Shown piece after piece: positions 7,321-55,179 of a DNA stretch of 64,000 nt. Origin of the DNA: Candidatus Nomurabacteria bacterium (GTDB taxonomy: Bacteria > Patescibacteriota > Minisyncoccia > Phycocordibacterales > UBA918); the NCBI GenBank assembly GCA_020632075.1, contig JACKGH010000002.1, forward strand, positions 75,454 through 139,453, written 5' to 3'. Both the position numbers and the translations under genes were made by a program. A model generated the notes under the pieces. That model worked only from the letters and a program-made list of their open reading frames with translations, searched no databases and had not been told where the DNA came from. Position 1 is the stretch's first letter; the number at the start of each line of letters is the position of its first letter.

Positions 7321-7348
7321 GGGCGCGGTCCTGGCGGACCGCGCCCCT
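7321..7348 (-). terminator. intrinsic terminator of the GNAT gene
   Basis: gggcgcggtcc/ggaccgcgccc hairpin with a T-run on the minus strand. Confidence 0.55.
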
Positions 7349-7349
7349 G

Positions 7350-14500: not shown

Positions 14501-17500
14501 AGCGAGTTTGCCTCCCAACTCTTTGAAATCAGCCTTGTCAGCCTTTGAATCAGAAACATAAGTTGCTCTCTTATCAATTTTGTTGATTTGACCAGCAGCA
14601 GTAGACTTGCTCTCTTTAGTCTGTTGGCTAACCACATCAATTACATTGCCACTTGAAGTAGAGGTTGTAGCAAAAACTACAGGGACTGTTGTTGTAGAAG
14701 TTGTTGATTTTTCTTGTACGATGTTAAGCCCGTCACTATTTCCTGTTTCTGAAACACCCCAAACTATCTCAGGATTTTCATCCGCCACTTGGCTTTCTCC
14801 TAAATCCAGATTGTCATGTGGAGATGTATCAGAAGAGATTGATCCTGAAGACAAAAGCTCAAAATCAGGAGAGTCTAGCAGCAGCATGATTTCGACCATT
14901 TCCTCACCAGGACCACCAGAACCAGCGGTAGAGGTTGCGGTGGTAACAATAGAGCTGAGGCGATACAACTCACTAGCATCATACGTCTTCGTTGTCGTAG
15001 CACCATTGCTGTGTACTTGCTGTGTAATCAAGTCATGTGGACCATACTCAAAGTTATTCACCACATCAGCAAACGAGCCCCCGCTTTCTCGTTGTTCAAC
15101 CTTTTCAAGCTTATTGGCTTTATTATAGGTGTATCTGACCTCAGAGTCATCTGGATAAGTGAGTAGAGTTTGATTGCCTAATCGGTCGTATTCATATTCA
15201 GTTGCGTATTCAGTACCAGCAATAGTCTTTGTCTCAGTATCAATTAATCCGTTTGGTGTGTAGGTGTAGGTTGTGGTGGCGCTTTCGTTTGCAACAAAAC
15301 ATAGCTGTGAAGCACCATTGGTACAGTTATCGTAGACGTATGTCACGTCAGTATAGCCAGTACCGAGATAATCTTCCGTCAGTACCCGATTCACACCATC
15401 GTACGTGTAGTTCACCACTTGCCCCTTCGGGTCAGTGGTAGAAGACACATTGCCAGCATCGTCATAACTAAACAGCCATGTTCCGTAATCTGTGTCAGAT
15501 GTATCATGCAAGTCTTCCAGTGAGGTGCGCCGAGACAAGCCGTCATAAGTCAGATTGCGAACATTGCCAGCAGCATCAGTTATCTTGATTAAGTCACCCC
15601 TTGCGTTCCAGTCGTAAACAGTATCGTATGAACTAACTCCTTCCTCTTCAGTAACTAGAGTTAGACGTCCATAGGCATCATACTCGAAGATCTTGTCATT
15701 GCTCGCTGCATCAGTAACTGTTTCTTGCCACTGGTCGTAGCTAGTGCTGGTAGTACCAACTACTGTCCCAACAGCCGTAATGCGAGCCAAAGCATCATAA
15801 ACATAGCTCGTCATCAAATCTCCGTCGGTGGTAGCATTGGTGCTGGTAGTACCAGTACTGAAGTAAGGGAGAGACTCAGCCTTCAAGAGACCATTGTCGC
15901 CATATATATAGTCACGTACTGCGTACTGAGTACTTCCTTCAGCTTCGACTCTTTCTTGGATCACCTGACCAAAACCATCATAATAAGTGTATTTACTATG
16001 TGAAGTTGAACCGTCGAGGTAATCGGTCTGTTGCACACTTATCGCCCCAGCAGTATCAGTGTATGTATAAGCTGCAATTTGCACTTGGCTACCAGTCTGA
16101 GGGTCAGGCATATACTTCGCTGTTGGTCGACCAAAGCCATCATAGATAGTGACAAACACTTCTCCATTTGCGTTGGTAGTCGTACCTACCTGACCAGTAC
16201 GATAATCATACTCATACTGAGTGTTGTGTCCTTCAGCATCAGTAGTTGAAGCAACGAATAGATTGTATGTGTCGTAAGCAAAAAGCGTGACGTTGCTATT
16301 AGGGTCGGTCTTAGTGAGAATGTTACCGTACGAATCATAAGTCAACTCTGTATCCACATAAGTGGAGCCAATAACCCAATCTTGTTGTTTGGTAAGATTT
16401 CCTGTCGTAACCGAACCGAGAGATTGATTGTCGTAGTAGTACCTAGATTCTTGAACCTTGGTGCTTGAGTCATCCTCAACCGTGATTTTGGATGGGAGTA
16501 CCAAGTCACTGCTCGTTGCATATTCATAGGTAGTTTCGCGATCGTCGGTTCCAGTATCTGTAAAAGTACCGTCAGTACTACCGCTAACTTCTCCCCACTC
16601 TGTCTTGGTTAACATCGAGCCATGATCACCACTATATATATACGAATTAGCGGAGGCTTTCTTATCACTGTCGCCATCATAGTCGAGCTGCAAATCACTC
16701 TCAAGTTTGACAAAAGTGCTACTGCTACTAAGGGAGGACGTGGCGTAATTGTATCGATTTAGTTGATAAAGGTTATCTGAAAGGTCAGTCTTTTCAGTAC
16801 GATACGCAACACCGAAGAGTGCTTCACCATCAATTTCTTCTTCTGATGACGTAGCGGCTTCATTCCCTTGATGGTAATACGTAATTTCTTTTCCTAAATC
16901 TGTAGTCTTTGTTACTTTACCGAAACCAACAAATCGATGGTCGTAAATGTCGTTCCGGTCTAAATAGTAGTATGCACCCTCATAGACATACTCATCTGTA
17001 GTTTCAGTAACTGACGATGTTTTGGTTACAGACTTTACAACCTGAAGTGAGATTGGAACTGTATTGTCTGTACTTGATTGCCAAAGTGGCTGATACTCGA
17101 TAACTGTCGCGGTGTCAGACACAGGATCAGTTATTGTCGCGAGTCGGAAGTCAGGACCTGGATTCAAATATACACGCATGTTGGATGAGGTGTATTGATA
17201 GGCAATGTCGGCCAGGCCGTCACCGTTAAAGTCAGCTATACGAGCATTCAACCCATCAGAAACATCAGACGACAAGTAAATCGGTGACGGCAGGCCAGGG
17301 AAACTCGATATGGTTGCACCCCAACCCGTTCCCGTATTCAGGCTCACACTAAGAGCACTACTGCCGTATGTACTCTGAAACCCGTTCACCTTATCAGCTA
17401 GACCATCACCATTGAAATCAAAATACTGTTGGGTGATGCCGTTGTTGTGGTCGACGTAAGAAGAATGATCTAAAGACGTCTCATGTTCAAAACCCCCTCC

Positions 17501-19093
17501 ACCACTATTAAGGTAAACCCACATCTGGCTGGTGGTGTACTGGTAAGCAATGTCAGCTAATCCATCACCGTTAAAGTCAGCTACTCGGGCGTTGTGGCCG
17601 TCCACCGTATCTGATGAAAAATACACCGTTGACGGCAAGCCTGACAGGAAACTCGATGATGCCGTTTCCCAACCCGTTCCCGTATTCAGGCTCACACTAA
17701 GAGCACTACTGCCGCTGTCACTCTGGAAAGCATTCACCTTATCAGCTAGACCATCACCATTGAAATCAAAATACTGTTGGGTGATGCCGTTACTACTATC
17801 AACATTCGCGGAATGGTTTAGTGATGATTCGTACTCAAAAGTATTTTCACCCGCGTTAAGGTAAACCCGCATCTGGCTGGTGGTGTACTGGTAAGCAATG
17901 TCAGCTAATCCATCACCGTTAAAGTCAGCTACTCGGGCGTTGTGGCCGTCTGGATCATCGGACGATAGATAGATTGGTGACGGCAAGCCAGGGAAGGTTG
18001 ACGTTGCCCCAACCCATCCACTACCATTACCAAAAATCACTCCAAGTGCATTGCTACCATAGCTACTTTCGAACCCGTTCACTCTATCAACCAAACCATC
18101 ACCATTGAAATCAAAATACTGTTGGGTGATGCCGTCATTATGATCAACATTCGCGGAGTGATTTAGAGCACTTTGATAGACCCAATCACCTGTACCTGCT
18201 CCATACTCAAACACGACAGCCGGCTTGGCCACATCAGTTGTTGGTGTAATGGAGTTTAACCGACCATCACTGTAAGACAGATCGTAAGTAGCAAACGTGT
18301 CACCGCTTTTTTTAACCTCTATCTTACTGATGTGATCCCCAGTATAAACTCGAAACCCTGACCTATAACTAATCCCACGTTTTGACGAACTCGCAACTGT
18401 AAATACTACGGTATACGGACCATAGGAAATGGTCGACGGATATAATTGCCCATCGCTATTAATATAGGTGTAGCTTATTTCATTTCCGTTACTATCAGTA
18501 CTACTGGCGAGATACCATCTGTAGATACGATTCGGATCGTCTGGATCTGCCATATGGGAGGAGAAAATATGGGTAGTACCATCTTTATCTGTTGTCTCCC
18601 AGGTACTTTGATTTGGATGACTATATACTCGAAAATTACCAAAATCTACTTCGGGTCTGTAATCGCTGCCATCCGCAATCAATTCTCCATCTAAGGACGA
18701 AACAAAAACCGGATCATCATAAATCGTATTTACCCCCTTACGGCTTGAGAGACTAATGTATGGAATACTGTCCTTCCAAGCAGCACCATAAACACCAACC
18801 ACATTCTCTTCATGTGAATTGTACAAAAGCGACACTGTTGGAGTATGTCCATTAACGCCCGGAGGCAAAGCAATTTCATACTGATAATCAAAAGCGCCAG
18901 AAGCATTGTCGTACGATGACCAAAGTGAGACTGGCTGGACGGCGTTTTGTGTTGTTCTCGCAGGATCGCCAACTACAAGTGAAGCATGAGCAAAAGGTAT
19001 GTCACCAAATGGACCAATGAATAAAATGACCGCCAAGAATAAACTGGCGGTTTTAGTAAGAAACGGTTTGCGAATAGTGTTTTTGTAAGTCAT
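11555..19093 (-). CDS. secreted 2512-aa TcB/TcC-like polymorphic toxin: signal peptide, SpvB-like domain, three tandem FG-GAP/VCBS repeats, RHS/YD-repeat shell with an internal insert of about 600 aa, RHS core with DPxG autoproteolysis motif, and a 205-aa Gly/Ala-rich C-terminal variable domain
   Basis: SpvB-like block LPPGVNGHTPTVSLLYNS..GAAWKDSIPYISLSSRKG. Three repeats of about 110 aa with FDFNGDGLAD. Many YD repeats (YTYDSYGNILTKTD..). Core YYPFGATR...RFTGHEYDDETDLSYMGARYYAGDTGRFTSQDPL...NPLIKFDPNGE. Confidence 0.85.
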   Translation of the reverse strand: MTYKNTIRKPFLTKTASLFLAVILFIGPFGDIPFAHASLVVGDPARTTQNAVQPVSLWSSYDNASGAFDYQYEIALPPGVNGHTPTVSLLYNSHEENVVGVYGAAWKDSIPYISLSSRKGVNTIYDDPVFVSSLDGELIADGSDYRPEVDFGNFRVYSHPNQSTWETTDKDGTTHIFSSHMADPDDPNRIYRWYLASSTDSNGNEISYTYINSDGQLYPSTISYGPYTVVFTVASSSKRGISYRSGFRVYTGDHISKIEVKKSGDTFATYDLSYSDGRLNSITPTTDVAKPAVVFEYGAGTGDWVYQSALNHSANVDHNDGITQQYFDFNGDGLVDRVNGFESSYGSNALGVIFGNGSGWVGATSTFPGLPSPIYLSSDDPDGHNARVADFNGDGLADIAYQYTTSQMRVYLNAGENTFEYESSLNHSANVDSSNGITQQYFDFNGDGLADKVNAFQSDSGSSALSVSLNTGTGWETASSSFLSGLPSTVYFSSDTVDGHNARVADFNGDGLADIAYQYTTSQMWVYLNSGGGGFEHETSLDHSSYVDHNNGITQQYFDFNGDGLADKVNGFQSTYGSSALSVSLNTGTGWGATISSFPGLPSPIYLSSDVSDGLNARIADFNGDGLADIAYQYTSSNMRVYLNPGPDFRLATITDPVSDTATVIEYQPLWQSSTDNTVPISLQVVKSVTKTSSVTETTDEYVYEGAYYYLDRNDIYDHRFVGFGKVTKTTDLGKEITYYHQGNEAATSSEEEIDGEALFGVAYRTEKTDLSDNLYQLNRYNYATSSLSSSSTFVKLESDLQLDYDGDSDKKASANSYIYSGDHGSMLTKTEWGEVSGSTDGTFTDTGTDDRETTYEYATSSDLVLPSKITVEDDSSTKVQESRYYYDNQSLGSVTTGNLTKQQDWVIGSTYVDTELTYDSYGNILTKTDPNSNVTLFAYDTYNLFVASTTDAEGHNTQYEYDYRTGQVGTTTNANGEVFVTIYDGFGRPTAKYMPDPQTGSQVQIAAYTYTDTAGAISVQQTDYLDGSTSHSKYTYYDGFGQVIQERVEAEGSTQYAVRDYIYGDNGLLKAESLPYFSTGTTSTNATTDGDLMTSYVYDALARITAVGTVVGTTSTSYDQWQETVTDAASNDKIFEYDAYGRLTLVTEEEGVSSYDTVYDWNARGDLIKITDAAGNVRNLTYDGLSRRTSLEDLHDTSDTDYGTWLFSYDDAGNVSSTTDPKGQVVNYTYDGVNRVLTEDYLGTGYTDVTYVYDNCTNGASQLCFVANESATTTYTYTPNGLIDTETKTIAGTEYATEYEYDRLGNQTLLTYPDDSEVRYTYNKANKLEKVEQRESGGSFADVVNNFEYGPHDLITQQVHSNGATTTKTYDASELYRLSSIVTTATSTAGSGGPGEEMVEIMLLLDSPDFELLSSGSISSDTSPHDNLDLGESQVADENPEIVWGVSETGNSDGLNIVQEKSTTSTTTVPVVFATTSTSSGNVIDVVSQQTKESKSTAAGQINKIDKRATYVSDSKADKADFKELGGKLALSKVNGLEVEVAKNRPEVSFKKWNEKVDFSISYNDISIQEADFSAGNLIRWKNQDQSKEVHVYPLSSDEQMENGGLEIEVVLAEKPDSNKFRFSLSGYENLDFFYQPELTEEEIGEGKERPENIVGSYAVYHKELSGHVLGGVNYGAGKVFHIYRPKIADSSGDEVWGALSIVDGELIVTVPQEFLDTAEYPVFVDPTFGDTSIGGSLSVHSGKDYGGIKGTPGQSGTVSSIKVYTRKQKSGSTVIGTAIYSDSSGSPNSRLAVDTGNQTITTTPAWISSNINLSVTGSTPYWIMYWPQIPSVDYYDSVSNAYKYETGGSFEGWPSSFTATQVSSIRLTMYAEYTLNNQAPTSPTELKTEGSANPTAVSDSAPEFTAVYNDPDSGDQAVNYQIQVDDDSGFGSTIWDSGKTALATTSQGSTTPSISYGGSTLASSTLYYWRIKFWDDEDEEGIWSTSTATFVLATGTDPYALYEVVQRVNYVYDSVGNITQIADSSGVVSSATTTYGYDDLYRLTSASTTLATTTPYSRTYTYSPIGNILSKSDQGSYTYAETGYANPHAATAINGVTYTYDKNGNLASTSASTTNTWNYRNQLVESDEGTATTSYGYDHNGSRVFKITSEGTTYYPFANYEITDTGTTTKHIYAGDMLVATVEGSGAGALTYHNHLDHLNSTRVVTDGIGYTAQVLDYYPFGATRIDAQYGNQNQTKRFTGHEYDDETDLSYMGARYYAGDTGRFTSQDPLHIRLDKPNLLTNPQKLNSYSYVENNPLIKFDPNGESSAMFWGNMQRVDNLSGGYISRETRSYQQAGQTAVNAATSPQAQAVYTVAGLAALTLAAPELGVPISTQMARSAAVTGISNAAFSGYVDKQDGSFDGGPLESGSSYLFGMGTAGSAAIKKSGPLVVGPAAAAAESYLFDGKVSGSQVGASGAGGTAGFLFETALTTSPVGNKAGFAGQVIQGTFELSVTIGAYKSLERDDGDDN
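11558..12172 (-). other. C-terminal variable domain of the RHS protein (toxin tip), Gly/Ala-rich with GxxxG glycine-zipper-like runs
   Basis: Lies after DPNGE: ...GMGTAGSAAIKKSGPLVVGPAAAAAESYLFDGKVSGSQVGASGAGGTAGFLFETALTT... Confidence 0.5.
17230..18200 (-). repeat. three near-identical tandem repeats of about 330 bp inside the RHS gene (FG-GAP-like units)
   Basis: The protein repeats NHSANVD.N.GITQQYFDFNGDGL.D.VNGF.S.YGS.AL.V...G.GW...S.F.GLPS..Y.SSD..DG.NAR.ADFNGDGLADIAYQYT.S.M.VYLN three times. Nucleotide blocks are also near-identical. Confidence 0.7.
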
Positions 19094-37214: not shown

Positions 37215-37397
37215 TTTGTCCTCCCAAAGAACAATCTTTTACTGTTTTATAATTATATTACAATATATACCAAATGTCAATAAATCATTGGTTTTCAACG
37301 CTTGACACTTGCTATTTTATGTATTTGTGGTATAAATCCAGCCAGGAGGGTGGCTATTATAGTAATAATTCCCGCACAGTTTTTTGGAGCAGCAGTA

Positions 37398-37643
37398 ATG
37401 ACTTCTAAGCAGATCGGCTTCGCGGTGGCAATCCTTGCCCTGACTAGCGTCGCAAGCGCCACCGCCGCTCACATGAGCGGCATTCCCTGGTTCCAGATCC
37501 AGAACTTCATCGGCAGCATCATCACGTATGTTGCCATAGGATTCTTCGCCATCATGATGGGTCTCGGCATCTTGATCGTATTCAGCGGAATGGTCGCACC
37601 TGGCTGGTGTCCGTTCAATCTCTGCAACGATCAGAAGAACTGA
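37398..37643 (+). CDS. small membrane protein (81 aa)
   Basis: GGAG SD 8 nt upstream. TGgTATAAA extended -10 at about 37320. Signal-like N-terminus plus two TM helices. Terminator follows. Confidence 0.5.
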   Translation: MTSKQIGFAVAILALTSVASATAAHMSGIPWFQIQNFIGSIITYVAIGFFAIMMGLGILIVFSGMVAPGWCPFNLCNDQKN

Positions 37644-37659
37644 TCAGAACCTCCCCCAG

Positions 37660-37686
37660 CAGCGCCCCCAAGGCGCTGCTTTTTTG
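37660..37686 (+). terminator. intrinsic terminator
   Basis: cagcagcgcc cccaa ggcgctgctg plus tttttt. Confidence 0.65.
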
Positions 37687-37702
37687 TTGTGTAAAAATTG
37701 TA

Positions 37703-43770: not shown

Positions 43771-44577
43771 ATGTTTGAATCACTCATTGCTGCTGCTGGC
43801 GTCGCCTCCGTCTCACTCGTCGGTGTCTTTTTCTTTGGTAATACAAAGCGACTCATTGGCGCACAGAAGTTTGTTGTTCCAGTTGCAGTTGGTGTCTTCT
43901 TGAGCTTGATCTTGACCGAACTGATCCCAGAGACACTCTCACTTTCACCGGAATGGGGTGGTATTGCCATCGCAGGTGGCTTTATCCTCTTTTACATACT
44001 AGCGAATGCACTGCACCAAAAGTATCACCACCTCGAAAGCGAAGACTGTGATCGTAAGGGTGCTGCGATGCTCTTACTCATCGGTGACGGGATTCACAAT
44101 GTCGCAGACGGTGTCGTCCTTGGTGGTGCGTTTATGGTCGATCCGACCGTAGGTATCGCAACCGCTGTCGGACTAGCGATCCACGAGATCCCGCAGGAGA
44201 TCGTTGAGTTTGGAGTATTGATCCGCGCCGGCTACACCCGCACGAGAGCTGCTCTTCTTAATCTCCTCTCTGCCAGCAGCATTATTGTTGGCGTTGTACT
44301 CATTTTTATCATTGCAGAGCACGCGGAGGATTTTGTATGGCTCATTACTGGAATCGCGGCCGGGAACCTCCTCTTCCTTGCGGCCAGTGATCTCTTACCT
44401 CGCATTCACGGCAACCTCTCACACTACCGGAGTATCTGGCACTCTACTCTTTCGATCATCCTTGGTTTTATCCTCATGACAGTCGTCTTGACCTGGACGC
44501 ACGAACACTTTGGTCATGGTGCTGATGCGCACGACGAGTACGATTCGCACTTACTACATGAGGTGATGGTGGAATGA
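43771..44577 (+). CDS. ZIP-family metal (zinc) transporter
   Basis: LIGDGIHNVADG...LAIHEIPQEI His/Glu metal-binding helices. Confidence 0.75.
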   Translation: MFESLIAAAGVASVSLVGVFFFGNTKRLIGAQKFVVPVAVGVFLSLILTELIPETLSLSPEWGGIAIAGGFILFYILANALHQKYHHLESEDCDRKGAAMLLLIGDGIHNVADGVVLGGAFMVDPTVGIATAVGLAIHEIPQEIVEFGVLIRAGYTRTRAALLNLLSASSIIVGVVLIFIIAEHAEDFVWLITGIAAGNLLFLAASDLLPRIHGNLSHYRSIWHSTLSIILGFILMTVVLTWTHEHFGHGADAHDEYDSHLLHEVMVE

Positions 44578-45162: not shown

Positions 45163-45984
45163 ATGGAACCAATCCTACTCGCGTTCCTGGTCACCCTCGG
45201 AGCCGGTCTTGCAACCGGAATCGGGAGTTTCCTCGCGTTCGCAGCAAAAGACACAAACAAAAAATTCTTATCCTTCATGCTCGGCCTTTCGGCCGGTGTG
45301 ATGATCTATGTCTCACTGGTTGAGATATTTCAAAAGGCAGTTACCTCGCTTGGTGAAGCCTTTGGTGATCATGCCACTGGCTACCTCTGGGCTACCATCG
45401 GCTTCTTTGGTGGCGTGGCCGTGATCTGGATCATCGATCACTTCATGCACGGCAGTGCTGAAGGCAGTCCGCACGAAGCGCATGAAGCACACGAAATGGA
45501 CCACCCAGACAAAGAGGAGCATGAAAAACGCGCTCTCCTCAAAATGGGAACCTTCACTGCGCTCGCTATCGCGATCCACAACTTTCCCGAAGGACTTGCG
45601 ACTTTCTTGGCAACCATGAACGAACCAGCGCTTGGTATCTCACTCGCGATCGCGATCGCGATCCACAACGTACCTGAAGGTGTGGCAGTATCCATCCCGA
45701 TCTACCATGCTACCGGTAGCCGCGTGAAGGCATTCTGGTATTCATTTGCCTCAGGCCTGGCCGAACCGGTCGGTGCCCTACTCGGCTACTTCCTCCTGAT
45801 CCAGTTCATCAGTGATCAGGTATTCGGAGTGATCTTCGCTGGCGTGGCGGGTATCATGGTGTTCATTGCACTTGATGAACTCCTCCCCGCTGCACAGAAG
45901 TATGGCTACCATCATCATTCGATCATCGGTGCCATCATCGGCATGGGAATCATGGCGGTCAGCTTGGTACTCTTCCTCTTTTAG
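45163..45984 (+). CDS. zupT: ZIP-family zinc transporter ZupT-like
   Basis: His-rich loop HEAHEAHEMDHPDKEEHE. AIAIHNFPEGLA and AIAIHNVPEGVAV motifs. Confidence 0.8.
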   Translation: MEPILLAFLVTLGAGLATGIGSFLAFAAKDTNKKFLSFMLGLSAGVMIYVSLVEIFQKAVTSLGEAFGDHATGYLWATIGFFGGVAVIWIIDHFMHGSAEGSPHEAHEAHEMDHPDKEEHEKRALLKMGTFTALAIAIHNFPEGLATFLATMNEPALGISLAIAIAIHNVPEGVAVSIPIYHATGSRVKAFWYSFASGLAEPVGALLGYFLLIQFISDQVFGVIFAGVAGIMVFIALDELLPAAQKYGYHHHSIIGAIIGMGIMAVSLVLFLF

Positions 45985-48074: not shown

Positions 48075-48881
48075 CTATCCAAGTGCTACATCAAGTGTCA
48101 TCATGACCGCAAAGCCGATCATCGCTCCGGTAGTAGCCAGATCTGTCATTCCCATACCGCCACGCTGTGCTTCCGGGATCAATTCTTCCACCACCACAAA
48201 CAGCATTGCACCAGCCGCAAATGCCAGTGCGTACGGCAAGATAGGTGTCGCCACAAGCACCACCGCAGCGCCGATCACAGCCGCGATCGGCTCAACCGCA
48301 CCCGATAGCTGCCCAAACCACCATGCCTTCTTTCGACTAAATCCTTCACGACGAAGTGGTACTGATACTGCGGCTCCTTCTGGGAAGTTCTGAATACCGA
48401 TACCAACAGCGAGCGCAATTGCCCCTGCCAGCGTCGCACTTTCAAGCCCAGCATACGCAGCTCCAAACGCCACACCAACTGCGAGTCCTTCCGGAATGTT
48501 ATGCAGTGTGATAGCAGACACCAAGAGAATACTGCGATGCCAAGACGTCTTCGGCCCTTCAGCATCCTCCTTCGGGAAGCCCATGTGCAGGTGCGGAATG
48601 ACTTTATCCATCACCCACAGCGTAGCAACACCGAGTAAAAATCCGATCAGAGGCTGCACCCAACCACCATCTGACATTTCGATCGCAGGCGAAAGCAGCG
48701 ACCAAAAGCTCGCAGCGATCATCACCCCAGCTGCAAAGCCGAGCATCGCGTTCAAGATGCGCTTATTGATTTCCTTAAAGAAGATCACGATAGTGGCACC
48801 AAGCGCGGTGACACTCCAAGTAAAAAGTCCGGCAAGCAACGCTTGCTCAACTGGACCAAGTCCAATAAACCATTCAACCAT
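48075..48881 (-). CDS. ZIP-family metal transporter (GufA/ZupT-like)
   Basis: [16 protein letters not shown] and [13 protein letters not shown] motifs, eight TM helices. Confidence 0.75.
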
Positions 48882-49057: not shown

Positions 49058-50206
49058 CTACTTCTTGATCGCGCTCGCCACTGCTTTTACCAAGCCTGGC
49101 GTCATGACCGACGGAATAACATTGTCAGCCGTTGGTTTCTTGATGAGTGCTGCGATCTTCTTTGCAGCTGCGATCTTCATCTCGTCAGTGATCTCAGTCA
49201 CACCGTGATCAAGCGCACCACGGAAAATTCCTGGAAATGCGAGTGAGTTATTTACCTGATTAGGAAAATCAGACCGGCCCGTAGCGATCACGATCGCTCC
49301 GGCACGCTTTGCATCCTCCGGCATGATCTCTGGAACCGGATTCGCGAGCGCAAACACGATCGGCGATTTTGACATCCGCTCGATATGAGCCTGTGCGATC
49401 GTACCCGGACCAGACACACCAATGATCACATCAACCCCATCAACCACCTGCATCACATCTCCTGAGAGATTATTTGGATTCGTCACCTTCGCCAAGTCCT
49501 TCTTGTATCCCTCAAGTCCCGGTCGGCCTTCATAGATCGCGCCCCGTGAATCTACCACCACAACATCTACAACCCCAGCTTTAACCAACATAAGCGCAGT
49601 CGCCCGGCCGGCCGCACCAGCCCCCACGATCACCACCCTGAGTTTCTTTAGCTGTTTTCCCACTACTTTCACTGCATTTAAAAGACCGGCCAACACTACC
49701 ACTGCCGTACCGTGCTGATCATCATGCATCACCGGGATCGAAAGCTCAGCCTTGAGTCGTTCCTCAATTTCAAAACACTTTGGCGCAGCAATATCTTCGA
49801 GGTTAATACCACCAAACCCCGGAGCGATCAGTTTCACCGTACGAATGATCTCTTCTGGCTCATCGGTATCGAGCACGATCGGAACTGCATCCACATCAGC
49901 CATTTCTTTGAAGATCGCCGCTTTCCCTTCCATTACCGGCAGTGCCGGGATCGCACCCAAGTCGCCTAGACCAAGCACCGCCGAACCATCACTCACAACT
50001 GCAACCGTATTGCGCTTCATGGTGTAGTTACGAGCTTCCTGTGGCTTCTTGGCCAAAAACGAAGAAACCGCACCGACTCCTGGCGTATACATCGTACTCC
50101 AGTCATCTTTGGTCTTAAGCTTTCCTTTTGTGGCAATACTGATCTTGCCTTTGAGTTTCTTGTGTAAAGCTAGCGCGAGTTTGTTGTAGTCCTTTTTAGC
50201 AGCCAT
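49058..50206 (-). CDS. NAD(P)-dependent malic enzyme (small form)
   Basis: MYTPGVGAV...VVSDGSAVLGLGDLGAIPALPVMEGKAAIF and the NAD-binding VIVGAGAAG. Confidence 0.85.
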   Translation of the reverse strand: MAAKKDYNKLALALHKKLKGKISIATKGKLKTKDDWSTMYTPGVGAVSSFLAKKPQEARNYTMKRNTVAVVSDGSAVLGLGDLGAIPALPVMEGKAAIFKEMADVDAVPIVLDTDEPEEIIRTVKLIAPGFGGINLEDIAAPKCFEIEERLKAELSIPVMHDDQHGTAVVVLAGLLNAVKVVGKQLKKLRVVIVGAGAAGRATALMLVKAGVVDVVVVDSRGAIYEGRPGLEGYKKDLAKVTNPNNLSGDVMQVVDGVDVIIGVSGPGTIAQAHIERMSKSPIVFALANPVPEIMPEDAKRAGAIVIATGRSDFPNQVNNSLAFPGIFRGALDHGVTEITDEMKIAAAKKIAALIKKPTADNVIPSVMTPGLVKAVASAIKK

Positions 50207-50402
50207 GTGATCGTGATGATTTTAAAAATAAGTGCGACAGAGTTTTAGTATACGCCATCAAAATCGGCGGGCAAATTTTCTCCGAAAATTTGCCCGCCCA
50301 ACAAACAAAAAGCCCTTTCGGGCATAAATTTAGGCGGGAAGCTATCGCTTCCCGCCCCTCCTTGCGGACTATTGAGATAATCTCACCGCGTGCCGCGTTG
50401 TG

Positions 50403-50543
50403 TCAGATACCCGGCCCTTTGCCGGTTGTGATCGCTCCGCCACCCCCGCCGAAGCCAGGATTGGCTTTGTTGCGGCGACAGGCCGCACCGACGCACCGGT
50501 CGTCATACTGATCGAGCTCATGCCCGAAAGCGGTCTTCTTCAT
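50403..50543 (-). CDS. unlisted 46-aa GC-rich micro-ORF (cassette 1)
   Basis: AAGGAG SD 7 nt upstream. Translates MKKTAFGHELDQYDDRCVGAACRRNKANPGFGGGGGAITTGKGPGI. Own promoter TTGCGG-N16-TGcTATAAA and terminator. Confidence 0.5.
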   Translation of the reverse strand: MKKTAFGHELDQYDDRCVGAACRRNKANPGFGGGGGAITTGKGPGI

Positions 50544-50640
50544 CGAGTTTCTCCTTGATGGAGGTTACTGTACCAGCCCGCCTCACATTGAGCGCTGGTA
50601 GTTTCTTTATAGCACTATAGCCATAAACCGCAAGTGTTAC
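50544..50640 (-). promoter_or_regulatory. promoter (extended -10 TGCTATAAA) plus hairpin leader of cassette 1
   Basis: cacTTGCGGtttatggctatagTGCTATAAAgaaa, then leader hairpin ccagcgctcaatgtgaggcgggctgg. Confidence 0.45.
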
Positions 50641-50666
50641 ACTTGCACAAGTAAAAAACCGCCGTA

Positions 50667-50690
50667 GGCGGTTGTTGGGGCCATCCTTGG
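50667..50690 (-). terminator. terminator of cassette 2
   Basis: caaccgcc tac ggcggtt plus ttttt on the minus strand. Confidence 0.55.
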
Positions 50691-50724
50691 CCGTAGATAT
50701 CATTCCGTTGACACGTGCCGGCGT

Positions 50725-50823
50725 TCAGACGCCGCTTATGGGCCTTGCGCGGGTGTGGACCGTATTGTTGATCCAGGTCGGATCGGCGATGCGTTCCGTG
50801 AAGTCGGGGGTGTCACGTTTCAT
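50725..50823 (-). CDS. unlisted 32-aa GC-rich micro-ORF (cassette 2)
   Basis: AAAGGAGAT SD. Translates MKRDTPDFTERIADPTWINNTVHTRARPISGV. Promoter TTGCAC-N17-TGcTATAAA and leader hairpin ccagctcctcatagtaggatgacagctgg. Confidence 0.45.
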   Translation of the reverse strand: MKRDTPDFTERIADPTWINNTVHTRARPISGV

Positions 50824-50949
50824 ACTGGATCTCCTTTGCTGGGAGGGTGGTGTGCACCAGCTGTCATCCTACTATGAGGAGCTGGTCTTTTCTTTATAGC
50901 ATTACGGCACACAAAGTGCAAGCTGGTTGTACCTAACGCTGTATAGAAA

Positions 50950-50985
50950 AAAGGCGGGAGAGACTTGCTCACCGCCTTTTGAAAT
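50950..50985 (-). terminator. terminator of the cold-shock protein gene
   Basis: ggcggtgagcaagtctctcccgcc hairpin with a 6-T run on the minus strand. Confidence 0.5.
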
Positions 50986-51005
50986 ACCCGAAGGTAGATT
51001 GAAGA

Positions 51006-51527
51006 TCAGGCCGCAGCCGAAGCGTTGCGATAGATTCGCGCCTCTGCCTCGGCTTCCGACAAAGTGAGCGGACCCGCCGCTACCATGGCGCCGAGACCGT
51101 CGTCCTGACACACTTCGTAGCGCATCGGATGAGTACCCTCGATGATACAGACACAGCGACCGTTCTCGTCGTTCTTTTCGACGATACGTCCAAACTGCTT
51201 CTGCTTCAGACGTGCCGCTTCCGCTGCAGCCAGGGCAGCAGCGACCCGCTTAGCCTCTTCGGCAGCAGCCTGCTTAGCTGCTTCCCGGGCACGAAGGACC
51301 GGCGACTCTTTGCCGCGGATCTTGTGGACGACCGAAACTTCGAGACCTTTCAGACCCATGACGGTCTCGACCTCGATATGCGGCATACCCTTCACGTCCT
51401 TGGCGGTGAAGCCGTATTCCTCGATGGTTCTGATGTGGAGAAAGGCATCACCGCTTTTGAGCGCGACGAAACCCCACCCCTTGTCGTCCTTGAAGAATTT
51501 GACCGAACCTTTTTTGATATTGCTCAT
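51006..51527 (-). CDS. cold-shock-domain protein with a long Ala/Lys-rich and Cys-containing C-terminal extension
   Basis: N-terminal KGSVKFFKDDKGWGFVALKSGDAFLHIRTIEE cold-shock-domain pattern, then an AAEEAKRVAAALAAAEAARLK linker and ...CVCIIEGTHPMRYEVC. Upstream promoter TTGACA..TAAAAAT with a leader of about 70 nt. Confidence 0.65.
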   Translation of the reverse strand: MSNIKKGSVKFFKDDKGWGFVALKSGDAFLHIRTIEEYGFTAKDVKGMPHIEVETVMGLKGLEVSVVHKIRGKESPVLRAREAAKQAAAEEAKRVAAALAAAEAARLKQKQFGRIVEKNDENGRCVCIIEGTHPMRYEVCQDDGLGAMVAAGPLTLSEAEAEARIYRNASAAA

Positions 51528-51657
51528 CATGACCTCCCCGGCCAGTGATTAGATGGAACTAGCTACAAAACGCAGCTTGATACTTGATATTTTTATCATA
51601 AAAAATACTTTTTGTCAATGGTCTCGCAGCGCTAGGTAAATTGGTACAATACGGGAC

Positions 51658-53838
51658 ATGTTATTCACCGACCCACTCACGTCGCACGTTCGAGTTGATA
51701 CTGCTCACCAAAAAGCTCTCAAACGACTTGGTATCGAAACCGTCGGCGACATTCTCTATCACCTCCCTGCTCGGTACGAAGACATTAGCGATGTACAGTC
51801 GGTTGGTGGCCTGGAGAAAGGCCAAGAAGCAGTCGTGTACGGCCAGCTTTCTGGCCTCAAGACCCGCAAAGCCTGGAAGAGTCGTAAGCCGATTGCTGAA
51901 GGCTACGTTGAAGATGGTTCGGCCAAGATGAAGATCATGTGGTTCAACCAGCCATACATCGCCAAGATGTATACCGATGGTATGTATGTGAAGTTGGCAG
52001 GCAAAGTGGCTGGAAGCGAAGACAAGCTGTATCTCAGCAATCCAGAAGTTGAGCCGCTCGATTCACTGCCAATCGATCGCCACGACAGCATCTTTGCTGG
52101 GACCGAAGGCGCCGACGATACGCTCTACCCCGTCTACCGCGAGACCAAGGGCATCACGAGCCGCTGGCTCTACCACACAGTCCTCAAGCTCTTTGAAAAA
52201 GGTGCACTCGATACCCTGAGCGACCCGATCCCGGAAGAGATCCTGAAGAAGTACAAACTTCCGATCCTTAAGACCGCGCTCGTGTGGGTGCACTCGCCCA
52301 AAAAAGCCGCCGATGCTGAAGCAGCGCGCAAGCGCTTTGCCTTTGAAGAGGTCTTCTATATACAAGTCCAGAAAGCACAGGAACGGGCGGCGGTGAGCGC
52401 CGCGCAAACCTACACGATCAAGACGAGCGACGAACACCTCGCGGCCTTTACCGAACGTTTCCCATTCTCGCTCACCGCCGCCCAAGACGACTCGATACAA
52501 TCTATCCTCGCTGACTTCGCCGCCGGCACGCACGCTATGTCGCGCCTCCTTGAAGGAGATGTAGGAAGCGGCAAGACTGCCGTAGCGGCTACTACTGCGT
52601 ATGCCGTCGCTACCTCTCGCCCACCAGAAGGCACGGATAAAAAGATTGAGTACGGGAACCTTCAAGTCGCATACATGGCACCAACTGAAATCCTCGCCAA
52701 GCAACACTTCGAATCGTTCATCGAGTATTTTCATCATCTCCCGATCTCGATCGGGCTCATTACCGGCTCCGGCTGTATGAAGTTCCCCTCGAAGACCGAC
52801 CCGACGAAGCCAACCAAGATCAGCAAGGCGCAGCTCCTGAAGTGGGTCGCCAACGGCGAAGTCCCGATCCTCATCGGCACACATGCACTTATCTATAAGA
52901 GCGTGGAATTCAAACATCTCGCCTACGTGATCATCGACGAGCAGCACCGCTTCGGCACCAACCAGCGCAAGAAGCTCGCCAAGAAAGACGCGCGGCTTCC
53001 ACACCTCCTCTCCATGACTGCCACCCCGATCCCGCGCACACTTGCGCTCACGATCTATGGTGACCTCGACATCACCTTACTTGATCAAATGCCGGCCGGC
53101 CGCAAACCAGTACAGACCACCGTCGTCGGCCCCGGCCAGAGCGCGGAGATGTACGACCACGTCCGCAGTGAGCTTGCGGCCGGCCGGCAAGCCTACGTCA
53201 TCTGCCCGCGCATCGACGAACCAGACCCAACCAAAGAAAACGCGCTCAATATGAAGAGCGTCATCGCCGAAGCCAAGCGCCTGAAGAAAGACGTCTTCCA
53301 AGACTACGTCATCGAACCCCTCCACGGCAAAATGACACCAGCTGAAAAGGACGATGTCATGAAGCGCTTCGCCGAGCACAAGATCGACATTCTCTGCGCC
53401 ACGAGTGTGGTGGAAGTGGGGGTCAATGTCCCGAATGCTACCAACATCATCATCGAAGGCGCGGAGCGCTTTGGCCTGGCGCAGCTCCATCAGCTCCGTG
53501 GGCGCGTCGTGCGCGGTACGCATCAGCCGTACTGTTTTGCGGTGACTGAGTCTAAGAGCGACAAAACCCGCGACCGCCTCAAGGCGCTCGCCACGGCCAA
53601 GAACGGCTTCGAGCTCGCCGAGCACGACTTACAGTTCCGTGGCTCCGGCGAGCTTTACGGCGGCAAGCAAAGCGGCCTCTCCGACCTCGGCATGGAGGCC
53701 ATCCGCAACCTCAAGCTCGTCGAGGCCGCCCGCACCGAGGCCAAGCACCTGGTCGACCAACACTCCGACCTAGCCAAGTCTTTCCCGCTCATCGCGGAGA
53801 AGGTCACGCGGTTGGGTGAAGTGCTGCATATGGAGTAA
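51658..53838 (+). CDS. recG: ATP-dependent DNA helicase RecG
   Basis: N-terminal wedge region (LPARYEDIS), Walker A GDVGSGKTAVA, DEQHRFG (DEQH box), helicase C-terminal motifs, 726 aa. About 60 % GC. Confidence 0.9.
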   Translation: MLFTDPLTSHVRVDTAHQKALKRLGIETVGDILYHLPARYEDISDVQSVGGLEKGQEAVVYGQLSGLKTRKAWKSRKPIAEGYVEDGSAKMKIMWFNQPYIAKMYTDGMYVKLAGKVAGSEDKLYLSNPEVEPLDSLPIDRHDSIFAGTEGADDTLYPVYRETKGITSRWLYHTVLKLFEKGALDTLSDPIPEEILKKYKLPILKTALVWVHSPKKAADAEAARKRFAFEEVFYIQVQKAQERAAVSAAQTYTIKTSDEHLAAFTERFPFSLTAAQDDSIQSILADFAAGTHAMSRLLEGDVGSGKTAVAATTAYAVATSRPPEGTDKKIEYGNLQVAYMAPTEILAKQHFESFIEYFHHLPISIGLITGSGCMKFPSKTDPTKPTKISKAQLLKWVANGEVPILIGTHALIYKSVEFKHLAYVIIDEQHRFGTNQRKKLAKKDARLPHLLSMTATPIPRTLALTIYGDLDITLLDQMPAGRKPVQTTVVGPGQSAEMYDHVRSELAAGRQAYVICPRIDEPDPTKENALNMKSVIAEAKRLKKDVFQDYVIEPLHGKMTPAEKDDVMKRFAEHKIDILCATSVVEVGVNVPNATNIIIEGAERFGLAQLHQLRGRVVRGTHQPYCFAVTESKSDKTRDRLKALATAKNGFELAEHDLQFRGSGELYGGKQSGLSDLGMEAIRNLKLVEAARTEAKHLVDQHSDLAKSFPLIAEKVTRLGEVLHME

Positions 53839-54951: not shown

Positions 54952-55179
54952 CTAATGAGCACTGAACACCTCGAATCCTTTCCAAGCTGTGCGCATCATC
55001 ACAAGCGCCATATCGTAGCCCCAGTCGATGAGACCGTACGGATCATCAGCTGGGCGCGCACCGTAATATGGCTCATACGGTTGGTGCATGAGATTCGGAA
55101 TCTCTTCCACCTTAAGCTCGCGCACATAGGCTGCCGGCCGTTCAGACGTCGTATTAAAAAACATGACACCTCTCCCCAT
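54952..55179 (-). CDS. hypothetical small protein (75 aa)
   Basis: ORF with its own downstream hairpin. Confidence 0.35.
   Translation of the reverse strand: MGRGVMFFNTTSERPAAYVRELKVEEIPNLMHQPYEPYYGARPADDPYGLIDWGYDMALVMMRTAWKGFEVFSAH

What the first reader, a model, noticed from the sequence alone, without database searches (positions are those of the whole stretch)
50290..50990. Two tandem micro-ORF cassettes (46 aa and 32 aa), each with its own extended -10 promoter, hairpin leader, strong SD and terminator
Cassette 1 (ORF 50403..50543) translates MKKTAFGHELDQYDDRCVGAACRRNKANPGFGGGGGAITTGKGPGI. Cassette 2 (ORF 50725..50823) translates MKRDTPDFTERIADPTWINNTVHTRARPISGV. The cassettes share a promoter core (TTGC..-N16/17-TGCTATAAAGAAA) and a leader hairpin starting ccagc..., but their peptides are unrelated. 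Both ORFs are about 62 % GC and are missing from the ORF track because they are under 60 aa. Possible identities: bacteriocin/RiPP-like precursors (a C39-like peptidase, a MacAB-type exporter and a subtilase are all in this window), dual-function sRNAs, or a novel class of small regulatory proteins. Cassette 1 ends in a Gly-rich tail containing two Cys.
Basis: seen in the sequence. Interest (0 to 1): 0.7.

Follow-up and report, generated by a model that had tools for sequence, protein, structure and literature searches.

The report
Two orphan small-gene units, shared promoter-leader
Two short stand-alone transcription units on the minus strand of a candidate-phyla-radiation (CPR) bacterium share a duplicated promoter-and-leader module but carry unrelated peptide frames found in no other organism, so they are most likely ordinary lineage-specific small genes or RNAs, not a new peptide class or antibiotic precursors.

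Summary
On the minus strand, between a cold-shock-domain (CSD) gene and the malic-enzyme gene maeB, lie two tandem units. Each has a promoter-like TTGC-N16/17-TGCTATAAA, a stem-loop near the 5' end, a CCTCC/AGGAG hairpin that occludes the Shine-Dalgarno site (SD), an ATG exactly 7 nt after the SD, a 32- or 46-codon frame, and an intrinsic terminator.

The two 5' modules are clearly homologous from the -35 box to the SD (z=12.8). The homology stops at the start codon, and the ORF and 3' parts are unrelated (z=0.2).

Both peptides are orphans. Peptide 1 matches only itself in 5.8 billion and 1.84 billion protein libraries, and nothing in any frame matches Pfam, NCBIfam, PADLOC or PHROGs. ORF1 has gene-like codon usage; ORF2 does not.

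The recG-maeB spacer is hypervariable in relatives. It is empty in several and holds other unrelated orphan micro-ORFs or larger genes in others. No RiPP (ribosomally made, modified peptide) maturase is nearby, and the only C39 peptidase is 43 kb away.

Best reading: a local duplication of a promoter-leader module drives two lineage-specific small transcripts. ORF1 is probably translated. Cassette 2 may be coding or a small RNA. Function is unknown and interest is modest.

The parts
50916..50921 (-). Cassette 2: -35-like hexamer TTGCAC
   Evidence: Read from the sequence. It lies 17 nt upstream of the -10 hexamer. It aligns with the cassette 1 -35. Promoter function is inferred.
50893..50901 (-). 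Cassette 2: extended -10, TGCTATAAA
   Evidence: Exact repeat of the cassette 1 box. One of only 8 TTGnnn-N16-19-TGnTAnA[AT]n sites in the window.
50856..50886 (-). Cassette 2: two-tier stem-loop near the 5' end (ACCAGC/GCTGGT outer stem, UCCU/AGGA inner stem)
   Evidence: Pattern hit. Present in the minimum-free-energy and centroid folds. Pairings verified.
50831..50846 (-). Cassette 2: anti-SD CCTCC (50846..50842) paired with SD AGGAG (50835..50831)
   Evidence: The helix is in the minimum-free-energy and centroid folds. SD P(unpaired) is about 0.2 from 4 to 45 C. Such an anti-SD is seen upstream of only 1 of 35 strong-SD long ORFs.
50725..50823 (-). ORF2, 32 aa (MKRDTPDFTERIADPTWINNTVHTRARPISGV), including the stop codon
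   Evidence: Called as a gene on the Logan contig L001. Codon usage is NOT gene-like: -0.10 bits/codon, 2nd percentile of true-gene fragments. No homologue found.
50651..50673 (-). Cassette 2: intrinsic terminator (AACCGCC-TAC-GGCGGTT followed by T6)
   Evidence: Terminator scan and fold.
50628..50633 (-). Cassette 1: -35-like hexamer TTGCGG
   Evidence: Sequence. 16-nt spacer to the -10 hexamer.
50606..50614 (-). Cassette 1: extended -10, TGCTATAAA
50571..50600 (-). Cassette 1: two-tier stem-loop near the 5' end (UACCAGC/GCUGGUA outer stem, CUCA/UGAG inner stem)
50551..50564 (-). Cassette 1: anti-SD CCTCC (50564..50560) paired with SD AGGAG (50555..50551)
50403..50543 (-). ORF1, 46 aa (MKKTAFGHELDQYDDRCVGAACRRNKANPGFGGGGGAITTGKGPGI), including the stop codon
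   Evidence: Called as a gene on six metagenome contigs. Codon usage is gene-like: 0.26 bits/codon, 33rd percentile of true-gene fragments, and only 1-2% of open off-frames score as high. Strict orphan.
50301..50356 (-). Cassette 1: 3' hairpin (GCGGGAAGC-GATA-GCTTCCCGC, 50356..50333), then the terminator GCCC-GAAA-GGGC plus a T-run (50323..50301)
   Evidence: Inverted repeat I6 and fold.
50266..50298 (.). 15-bp perfect palindrome GGCGGGCAAATTTTC/GAAAATTTGCCCGCC overlapping the -35 of the maeB promoter (TTGCCC-N16-TATACT). It is not part of the cassette proper; it is conserved upstream of maeB in relatives.
   Evidence: Related palindromes lie upstream of maeB in L090, L091 and L007, with a weaker one in L089.

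Best explanation
**What it is.** These are two independent monocistronic small transcription units: about 235 nt (roughly 50886 to 50651) and about 300 nt (roughly 50600 to 50301). They lie in a hypervariable spacer of a Kaiserbacteria/Nomurabacteria-like (Patescibacteria) genome. They arose by local duplication or propagation of a ~100-nt promoter-leader module that is now fused to two unrelated downstream bodies.

**How it most likely works.**
1. The identical extended -10 boxes give both units the same transcriptional input.
2. The stem-loop, which starts about 5-7 nt after the -10 box, sits at or near the 5' end of the RNA and protects it from 5'-end-dependent decay.
3. A conserved CCUCC just upstream of the AAGGAG SD keeps the ribosome-binding site mostly paired. 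Translation is therefore damped or gated rather than maximal.
4. An intrinsic terminator ends each transcript, so neither unit reads into maeB.

**Products.** ORF1 (46 aa) is probably translated into a species-specific soluble peptide. ORF2 (32 aa) is either a very young or atypical coding frame, or cassette 2 acts as an RNA.

**Shown versus inferred.** Shown: the sequence anatomy, the homology of the modules, the lack of any homologue, and the variability of the locus. Inferred: promoter activity, the transcription start, the stabiliser role, SD gating and translation.
For: **Anatomy.**

**Module homology.** It runs from -35 to the SD and stops at the start codon: z=12.8 against z=0.2 for ORF plus 3'; 68% over 104 columns.

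**Start codon.** The ATG is kept exactly 7 nt after AGGAG in both copies, although only 2 of the 7 spacer bases are identical. Both frames start MK[K/R].

**SD occlusion.**
- An anti-SD next to the SD is rare: 1 of 35 strong-SD long ORFs.
- It is kept in both copies despite different loop length and sequence.
- The SD is predicted mostly paired at 4-45 C.

**Coding potential.** Only ORF1 among all eight ORFs of 32 aa or more in the spacer has gene-like codon usage.

**Gene calling.** Gene callers picked ORF1 on six contigs and ORF2 on one, L001.

**Locus variability.**
- The spacer is empty in L089, L172, L173, L176 and L177.
- It holds other orphan micro-ORFs with a promoter-like box, SD and terminator in L007 (58 aa), L090 (49 aa) and L174 (53 aa).
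- It holds larger genes in L087, L088, L091 and L178.

**Same layout elsewhere.** A third stand-alone small gene in the window (37398-37643) has the same layout.

**Copy number.** Only two copies of the module exist in 64 kb plus 1.4 Mb of relatives.
Against: - No expression data exist.
- No relative lies between 84% and 100% malic-enzyme identity. The near-identical contigs carry no substitutions inside the ORFs, so selection on the frames could not be tested.
- The leader hairpins fold no better than shuffles (z about -1).
- ORF length is not significant, and AGGAG-ATG is only weakly enriched.
- ORF2 codon usage looks non-coding.
- The promoters fail a standard sigma-70 consensus scan.
- The CPR promoter consensus and the ribonuclease set of this organism are not established here.
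Confidence: 0.55

Rival explanations
1. One or both units, cassette 2 above all, are non-coding small RNAs. Their functional part is the conserved 5' ~60 nt: the stem-loop plus a C-rich CCUCC motif that could pair with ribosome-binding sites of target mRNAs. The downstream open frames are fortuitous.
For: - Homology between the copies is confined to the 5' module.
- ORF2 codon usage is like non-coding open frames.
- ORF lengths are expected by chance.
- Neither peptide has a homologue.
- The relative L007 has a promoter, 5' hairpin and terminator unit with no credible ORF in the same spacer.
- Both units are bounded by a promoter-like box and an intrinsic terminator.
Against: - The ATG is kept at an identical 7-nt distance from AGGAG in both copies while the spacer diverged, and both frames start MK[K/R].
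- ORF1 has gene-like codon usage.
- No Rfam family matches.
- The cassette 2 transcript is not unusually structured (z=-1.2).
- No conserved RNA was found in relatives.
Confidence: 0.25
2. The peptides are RiPP or bacteriocin precursors, matured by the C39-like peptidase or the subtilase and exported by the MacAB/HlyD-type system in the window.
For: The peptides are small. Peptide 1 has a Gly run and two Cys, and AlphaFold2 places a beta-hairpin at residues 12-27 with Cys17 and Cys22 either side of the turn. A C39 peptidase (6796-7368), a subtilase (56434-58425) and HlyD/FtsX/ABC genes (58815-62397) exist in the window.
Against: - No precursor family hit in Pfam or NCBIfam at E<=1.
- No radical-SAM, YcaO, lanthipeptide or lasso maturase among the window's ORFs of 120 aa or more that look like genes.
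- The C39 peptidase is 43 kb away, beside RF2 and FtsEX genes.
- An HlyD/RND-type adaptor gene also lies beyond recG in relatives that lack these cassettes.
- There is no double-glycine-type leader: the Gly run sits 10 residues from the C-terminus.
- There is no signal peptide.
- The peptides are not conserved anywhere.
Confidence: 0.04
3. The region is decaying or neutral DNA, either remnants of former genes or spacer filler. The apparent signals are non-functional leftovers, and the ORFs are never expressed.
For: The frames are orphans and the spacer is hypervariable. The statistical weight of ORF length and SD-ATG alone is weak.
Against: - No frame on either strand matches any protein family.
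- Both copies keep the complete set of promoter box, hairpin, anti-SD/SD, ATG and terminator in the right order and spacing. The module keeps 68-79% identity while the adjacent bodies keep none, which argues for constraint on, or recent reuse of, the module.
- The region is 100% identical in five independent assemblies.
Confidence: 0.1
4. The units are cis-regulatory for maeB (a leader peptide or attenuator), or they form a type I toxin-antitoxin pair.
For: Cassette 1 lies directly upstream of maeB on the same strand and is followed by several hairpins. An 18-nt inverted repeat pairs the start of ORF1 with the terminator region.
Against: - maeB keeps its own palindrome plus TATACT promoter in relatives with no cassettes.
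- Strong terminators separate ORF1 from maeB.
- The peptides are hydrophilic with no transmembrane segment, unlike type I toxins.
- No antisense promoter was found.
Confidence: 0.04

Closest known systems
Putative mobile promoters / promoter propagation (Matus-Garcia et al. 2012, PMC3488235)
   Same: Homologous non-coding sequence upstream of non-homologous CDSs within one genome. As in their Treponema example, conservation runs from the promoter to a few bases before the start codon and then stops (compared). Two-member families were the commonest case in that survey.
   Different: Identity is below their cut-off: 78.6% over 42 nt and 74% over the best 50 columns, against >=80% over >=50 nt. 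The two copies are tandem neighbours rather than dispersed, and the genes they drive are micro-ORFs.
5'-terminal stem-loop and strong-SD mRNA stabilisers of Gram-positive bacteria (for example B. subtilis hbs, PMC5737220; decay review PMC3997798, both listed; the aprE and ermC leaders are from my own knowledge)
   Same: A hairpin at or next to the predicted 5' end, followed by a strong SD, on short monocistronic mRNAs.
   Different: Nothing here has been tested. The transcription start is only predicted. The hairpins are of modest stability (z about -1). In addition, the SD here is occluded by an anti-SD.
Dual-function sRNAs that encode small peptides (SR1/SR1P, RNAIII/hld, SgrS/SgrT; from my own knowledge)
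   Same: Transcripts of 200-300 nt with their own promoter and terminator, a short ORF with an SD, and structured 5' regions.
   Different: No Rfam match, no conserved RNA or peptide in relatives, and no identified target.
Orphan (taxonomically restricted) small ORFs in variable intergenic hot spots
   Same: There is no homologue in 5.8 billion or 1.84 billion protein libraries. The units sit at a locus whose content differs between genomes sharing 80-84% identical flanking proteins.
   Different: Nothing distinguishes them from this general category, apart from the duplicated leader with its anti-SD.

Membership tests
Translated small-protein gene (sORF) | SD and start codon at canonical spacing downstream of a promoter | tested here: met
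   AGGAG, then 7 nt, then ATG in both units, 55-65 nt after a TGCTATAAA box. The signal on its own is only mildly enriched in this genome.
Translated small-protein gene (sORF) | Codon usage like that of the host's genes | tested here: inconclusive
   ORF1 meets it (0.26 bits/codon; 1-2% of open off-frames score as high). ORF2 does not (-0.10; 2nd percentile of true-gene fragments). The test has low power at 32-46 codons: a plausible 81-aa membrane protein gene scores only at the 6th percentile.
Translated small-protein gene (sORF) | Reading frame conserved in relatives, with purifying selection | tested here: not met
   No homologue in any library or in 1.4 Mb of related loci. The only other copies are 100% identical strains, or one contig with 3 SNPs, all outside the ORFs, so selection cannot be measured.
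Translated small-protein gene (sORF) | Direct evidence of transcription or translation | not testable with these tools
   This needs metatranscriptome or metaproteome data from the source samples.
RiPP / bacteriocin precursor | Recognisable precursor family or leader motif (double-glycine, NHLP/Nif11, lasso and the like) | tested here: not met
   Pfam and NCBIfam give 0 hits at E<=1. By inspection there is no hydrophobic -4/-7/-12 pattern before a GG.
RiPP / bacteriocin precursor | Maturase, protease or exporter genes adjacent to the precursor | tested here: not met
   The neighbours are maeB, a CSD gene, recG, ZIP transporters and a ketoacyl synthase. The C39 peptidase is 43 kb away. An HlyD/RND-type adaptor gene also lies beyond recG in relatives without the cassettes.
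Putative mobile promoter family (PMC3488235) | Promoter regions align over >=50 nt at >=80% identity | tested here: not met
   BLAST gives 78.6% over 42 nt (E=5e-6). The best 50-column stretch is 37/50. Identity is 68% over 104 columns.
Putative mobile promoter family (PMC3488235) | Downstream and upstream CDSs do not align | tested here: met
   The CDSs give no BLAST hit better than an 8-mer. ORF plus 3' parts give z=0.2. No similarity in any reading frame.
Known RNA family (riboswitch, leader or sRNA in Rfam 15) | Covariance-model match at or near the gathering score | tested here: not met
   Only tRNAs reach the gathering score in the window. The best sub-threshold hits in 50150-51050 are terminator-like noise.
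RNA thermometer | SD-occluding helix that melts over the physiological temperature range | tested here: not met
   Predicted P(unpaired) of the SD stays at 0.2-0.5 from 4 to 45 C with no opening trend. This is an in-silico result only.
Type I toxin-antitoxin | Small hydrophobic membrane toxin plus an overlapping antisense RNA | tested here: not met
   Both peptides are hydrophilic with no transmembrane segment (sequence). No plus-strand promoter-like site lies in the region.

The most novel reading that the evidence does not exclude
The recG-maeB spacer of this CPR clade may be a birthplace for small genes. A 5' expression module is retained, duplicated or re-used, while the body behind it turns over completely. 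The module is an extended -10 promoter, a 5' stem-loop, a gated SD and an ATG-AAR start. This would yield a stream of species-specific micro-proteins, either born de novo or under extreme diversifying selection, for example in episymbiont-host interaction.

Hints:
- Module homology stops at the ATG.
- The W1 and L007a initiation regions are similar across species (z=5.1) although their ORF bodies are unrelated.
- Unrelated orphan micro-ORFs sit at this locus in 4 of the 11 distinct genomes sampled.
Probability: 0.12. Interest if true: 0.6.

Novelty: new member of a known kind. Interest (0 to 1): 0.3.

Why it matters
If transcribed and translated, these would be further examples of the many unannotated, lineage-restricted micro-proteins of CPR bacteria; peptide 1 is listed only from Logan and ENA assemblies, not from NCBI. 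They would also be a tidy natural example of one promoter-leader module placed in front of unrelated bodies.

The anti-SD/SD leader is a small, testable piece of regulatory logic in a phylum where almost nothing is known about gene expression signals. There is no indication of a new biochemical system, an antibiotic or a new RNA class.

Tried and rejected
1. **Rfam.** Gathering thresholds on the whole window and permissive E-values on 50150-51050 gave only tRNAs and noise.
2. **Peptide homology.**
   - Word-indexed search of 5.8 billion proteins.
   - Exhaustive HMMER over 1.84 billion representatives.
   - tblastn against all fetched loci.
   - Pfam, NCBIfam, PADLOC and PHROGs, for all six-frame ORFs where relevant.
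   - Nothing but self was found. Peptide 2 was too short for the word-indexed search.
3. **Phage or plasmid origin.** The viral-contig pattern scan and blastn against phages and plasmids found no match.
4. **Selection test.** The six other contigs are identical or differ by 3 SNPs outside the ORFs. No relative lies between 84% and 100% identity.
5. **A cross-genome "module family".**
   - L090 has TGCTATAAG plus a TACCAAC/GTTGGTA hairpin, which looked like covariation.
   - The W-versus-L090 alignment is not significant beyond the -10 box.
   - nhmmer gives the L090 cassette E=7.3.
   - A generic "-10 plus hairpin" descriptor is not enriched (46 against 38+-6).
   - I therefore treat the resemblance as analogy, not homology.
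6. **Covariance model.** MAFFT misaligned the 3' stem arm, so no model was built and nhmmer was used instead.
7. **RNA thermometer.** No melting was predicted.
8. **Foreign-DNA signature from GC3.** The value is within the local range.
9. **Plus-strand genes in the spacer.** They have no SD and non-gene-like codon usage.
10. **Integron attC, CsrA-site and attenuator readings.** I considered these by inspection and dropped them. The hairpins are too short, and lack the R''/R' cores, for attC. A GGA motif is absent from the W1 hairpin. maeB has its own conserved promoter.
11. **Single-sequence AlphaFold2 models.** Confidence is low to moderate (pLDDT 58 and 72), which was not informative enough to justify fold searches.
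Full report
**Observation**

They lie in the 799-nt spacer (50207-51005) between the malic-enzyme gene maeB (49058-50206, minus) and a 174-aa gene for a weak cold-shock-domain (CSD) protein (51006-51530, minus). recG lies beyond, at 51658-53838 on the plus strand.

Read on the minus strand, each unit has, in order:
- a TTGC-type -35 hexamer;
- a 16- or 17-nt spacer;
- TGCTATAAA;
- about 5-7 nt;
- a stem-loop whose outer stem is ACCAGC/GCTGGT;
- about 10-15 nt;
- CCTCC, then 4-6 nt, then AAGGAG;
- 7 nt, then ATG;
- the ORF;
- one or more GC-rich hairpins with T-runs.

The 13-mer TGCTATAAAGAAA occurs only at these two places in 64 kb. A 24-nt block is 88% identical at a 287-nt spacing.

The whole stretch from -35 to the Shine-Dalgarno site (SD) is homologous. 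The local alignment score is 42 against 14.2+-2.2 for shuffles, and 0 of 1000 shuffles reach it. Identity is 68% over 104 columns.

The ORF plus 3' parts share nothing (z=0.2), in any reading frame. It is confined to the 5' control region.

- The last "terminator" (50298..50266) is a 15-bp perfect palindrome that overlaps the -35 of the maeB promoter (TTGCCC-N16-TATACT). Related palindromes (GGCAAAATTTC...GAAATTTTGCC) lie upstream of maeB in relatives with no cassettes. It belongs to maeB.
- About 60% GC is barely above the flanking genes. GC3 of 0.70/0.78 is matched by recG at 0.71 and the CSD gene at 0.66.
- An open frame of 46 or 32 codons after an ATG is expected by chance in this composition (P=0.17 and 0.38). 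AGGAG-N4-9-ATG occurs 19 times in the window against 12+-3 expected.
- A standard sigma-70 scan does not call the promoters. My looser scan for an extended -10 finds 8 sites in the window, including these two. Promoter activity is therefore an inference.

**Who carries it**

The flanking malic enzyme is 100% identical to a protein annotated in a Candidatus Kaiserbacteria MAG. The nearest species-level genome is a Ca. Nomurabacteria chromosome at 80% identity (L007). The window is therefore from a Patescibacteria (CPR) bacterium.

Peptide 1 is encoded on six metagenome contigs, and all six also contain ORF2. Five are 100% identical to the window over the region. One has three SNPs, none inside an ORF. 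No relative exists between 84% and 100% malic-enzyme identity, so the reading frames could not be tested for purifying selection.

**Are the peptides related to anything?**

No.
- Peptide 1 finds only itself in the word-indexed search of 5.8 billion proteins and in an exhaustive HMMER search of 1.84 billion representatives.
- Neither peptide has a tblastn match in about 1.4 Mb of related loci (best non-self E=0.07).
- None of the eight ORFs of 32 aa or more in the spacer, on either strand, matches Pfam or NCBIfam at E<=1.
- PADLOC and PHROGs give nothing.
- The 651-nt region has no blastn match in the phage or plasmid collections, and the promoter-leader pattern has no match in the viral contigs.
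- Rfam has no match beyond terminator-like noise.

**Coding potential**

I trained a codon log-odds model on 31 long ORFs of the window.
- ORF1 scores 0.26 bits/codon. That is the 33rd percentile of true-gene fragments of equal length, and only 1-2% of open off-frame fragments reach it.
- ORF2 scores -0.10. That is the 2nd percentile of true fragments and is typical of open non-coding frames.
- No other ORF in the spacer is gene-like, and the plus-strand ORFs lack an SD.
- The test is weak at this length. A plausible 81-aa membrane-protein gene elsewhere in the window scores only at the 6th percentile.

Independent support for real start codons:
- The ATG sits exactly 7 nt after AGGAG in both paralogous leaders, although only 2 of the 7 spacer bases are the same.
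- Both frames begin MK[K/R].

Single-sequence AlphaFold2 models are of low to moderate confidence. Peptide 1 has pLDDT 58, with a beta-hairpin at residues 12-27 that has Cys17 and Cys22 either side of the turn. Peptide 2 has pLDDT 72, with two short helices.

**The leader**

Both leaders fold into the same two elements in their minimum-free-energy structures.
- The first is a two-tier stem-loop near the 5' end. The outer stem is 6-7 bp. The inner stem is 4 bp and differs between the copies (CUCA/UGAG against UCCU/AGGA). There is a 4-5-nt bulge on the 3' side (verified).
- The second is a 4-bp CUCC/GGAG helix that occludes the SD.

Each fold is individually no better than shuffles (z about -1). 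The case therefore rests on the helices being kept in both paralogues despite different loops.

An anti-SD within 25 nt upstream of a strong SD is rare in this lineage. It occurs at 1 of 35 long ORFs, and that one is a likely spurious antisense frame.

The SD is predicted to be mostly paired from 4 to 45 C, with P(unpaired) of 0.2-0.5 and no melting trend. This looks like constitutive damping or factor-dependent gating, not a thermometer.

**The locus in relatives**

I read the recG-maeB spacer in 11 distinct other genomes, all with 80-84% identical malic enzymes. (L087/L088, L172/L173 and L176/L177 are each two contigs carrying the same malic-enzyme sequence.)

| Locus | Content of the recG-maeB spacer |
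|---|---|
| L089, L172, L173, L176, L177 | empty (97-170 nt) |
| L087, L088 | 190-aa PEP-CTERM-like gene |
| L178 | 181-aa gene |
| L091 | GtrA gene plus a CSD gene, with no cassettes between the CSD gene and maeB |
| L174 | 53-aa ORF plus a 246-aa gene |
| L090 | 49-aa acidic ORF |
| L007 | 58-aa ORF, followed by a promoter-hairpin-terminator unit without a credible ORF |

The micro-ORFs in L007, L090 and L174 each have a -10-like box, a nearby hairpin, a strong SD and a terminator. Their peptides are unrelated to each other and to the window's peptides. The L007 peptide is again an orphan. The spacer is therefore a hot spot where small lineage-specific genes come and go.

L090's unit (TGCTATAAG, TACCAAC/GTTGGTA hairpin, AAGGAG) at first looked like a covarying orthologue. 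However:
- the alignment to W1 and W2 is not significant beyond the -10 box (z=1.0-1.7);
- an nhmmer profile of the W1/W2 module gives it E=7.3, among noise;
- a generic "-10 plus hairpin" descriptor is not enriched over shuffles (46 against 38+-6).

I treat it as an analogous design.

One cross-species similarity does stand out. The initiation regions of W1 and L007a share ATCA..AGGAGAAACTC..ATGAA (z=5.1, 1 of 1000 shuffles). The 10-mer GGAGAAACTC is otherwise at chance frequency in the loci. After about ten comparisons this is suggestive only.

A third stand-alone small gene in the window (37398-37643, an 81-aa membrane protein) also has TGGTATAAA, a hairpin close to the 5' end, an SD and a terminator. 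The layout therefore seems to be a common way of building small monocistronic genes in this genome.

**Most likely mechanism**

Shown: two self-contained units with a duplicated ~100-nt control module and unrelated bodies.

Inferred:
- The identical extended -10 boxes give both units the same transcriptional input.
- The stem-loop lies at or near the 5' end and stabilises the RNA against 5'-end-dependent decay. This is as described for 5' stem-loops and strong SDs in Gram-positive mRNAs (papers listed: PMC5737220, PMC3997798; otherwise my own knowledge).
- The CCUCC keeps the SD partly closed, which damps or gates translation.
- The terminators insulate the units from each other and from maeB, which has its own conserved promoter.

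ORF1 is probably translated (my estimate about 0.55). ORF2 is less likely to be (about 0.35). Cassette 2 may act as an RNA.

The origin is best described as promoter reuse or propagation (PMC3488235). That survey describes homologous promoter regions upstream of non-homologous CDSs, with conservation ending just before the start codon. The pair here falls just below that survey's cut-off: 78.6% over 42 nt and 74% over the best 50 columns, against >=80% over >=50 nt. It is therefore an older or more diverged example and not a formal member.

**Rivals**

- *sRNA reading, about 0.25.* It is favoured by the 5'-only homology, ORF2's codon usage, the chance-level ORF lengths, and the ORF-less unit in L007. 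It is disfavoured by the conserved SD-ATG geometry and ORF1's codon usage.
- *RiPP/bacteriocin reading, about 0.04.*
  - There is no precursor family and no double-glycine-type leader.
  - No maturase was found among the window's ORFs of 120 aa or more that look like genes.
  - A stand-alone C39 peptidase is 43 kb away, next to RF2 and FtsEX.
  - An HlyD/RND-type adaptor gene also lies beyond recG in relatives that lack the cassettes.
- *Neutral or decayed DNA, about 0.1.* It is disfavoured by the complete, correctly ordered signals kept in both copies and by the absence of any family match in any frame.
- *Attenuator of maeB or type I toxin, about 0.04.* It is disfavoured because maeB has its own promoter in cassette-less relatives and because the peptides are hydrophilic.

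**Novelty and verdict**

This is a confirmed pair of lineage-specific small transcription units with a duplicated, SD-occluding promoter-leader. It is a new member of known kinds: orphan small ORFs or sRNAs, and promoter reuse. It has no detectable family, partners or function.

It is worth a line in an annotation and a look in metatranscriptomes, but it does not point to a new system. The most novel reading not excluded is a small-gene birthplace. In that reading a retained 5' expression module at the recG-maeB spacer sits in front of rapidly replaced bodies. I give it about 0.12.

Noticed in passing
window 50266-50298; L090 3410-3434; L091 3411-3446; L007 about 3903-3935: A palindrome (GGCAAAATTTC...GAAATTTTGCC) overlapping the -35 of the maeB promoter (TATACT -10) is conserved in sequence across genomes whose spacers are otherwise unrelated. 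It looks more like an operator for a dimeric regulator of maeB, or a bidirectional terminator, than part of the cassettes. L002 carries two SNPs at its edge (50299, 50295).
   Followed up: partly
window 50308-50325 and 50520-50537: An 18-nt, 83% complementary inverted repeat pairs codons 3-8 of ORF1 with the GCCCGAAAGGGC terminator region. It dominates the minimum-free-energy fold of the cassette 1 transcript (z=-4.8, inflated by the terminators). It could be a 5'/3' interaction or chance (rough expectation about 0.1 per region).
   Followed up: partly
window 37330-37690 (+): An unannotated-looking stand-alone gene for an 81-aa membrane protein (37398-37643). It has TTGCTA-N16-TGGTATAAA, a hairpin close to the 5' end (AGCCA/TGGCT), a GGAG SD and a strong terminator. 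There is no Pfam hit and no relative in the fetched loci.
   Followed up: partly
window 54952-55164 (-): A 70-aa ORF with clearly gene-like codon usage (0.38 bits/codon; 0 of 344 open off-frames score as high). It has a GCGCTATAAC promoter-like box and no Pfam hit. It is probably a real small gene just beyond recG.
   Followed up: no
window 6796-7368 (-): A stand-alone 190-aa Peptidase_C39 domain protein (E=4e-17) that is not fused to an ABC transporter. It overlaps a GNAT acetyltransferase gene (7350-7874) and lies next to RF2 and FtsEX. Its substrate is unknown.
   Followed up: no
window 11555-19093 (-): A 2512-aa protein with SpvB, FG-GAP, RHS-repeat and Ig-like domains. This is a Tc/RHS-type polymorphic-toxin-like giant protein in a CPR genome.
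   Followed up: no
window 43771-44577, 45163-45984, 48075-48881: Three ZIP-family metal transporter paralogues lie within 5 kb of each other. Relatives carry ZnuABC plus a metal-dependent repressor, or a ZIP gene, next to maeB instead. The neighbourhood seems devoted to metal uptake.
   Followed up: no
window 51006-51530 (-): The 174-aa protein upstream of the cassettes has only a sub-threshold N-terminal CSD match (24.5 bits against a cut-off of 27). It has an Ala/Glu/Lys-rich linker and a Cys-containing C-terminal domain with no family. A 194-aa counterpart sits directly next to maeB in L091.
   Followed up: no
L089 740-1000 (+): Another micro-ORF unit (TAATAAT box, hairpin, AAAGGAG, ATG, MKNRSAAQLRR...) lies between a tRNA gene and recG in a relative whose recG-maeB spacer is empty.
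   Followed up: no
window 63303-63332: A perfect 13-bp-stem palindrome (ACCAGCTACGACT-AACC-AGTCGTAGCTGGT) lies inside a 306-aa ORF. It has the same ACCAGC/GCTGGT ends as the cassette hairpins. This is probably coincidence.
   Followed up: no
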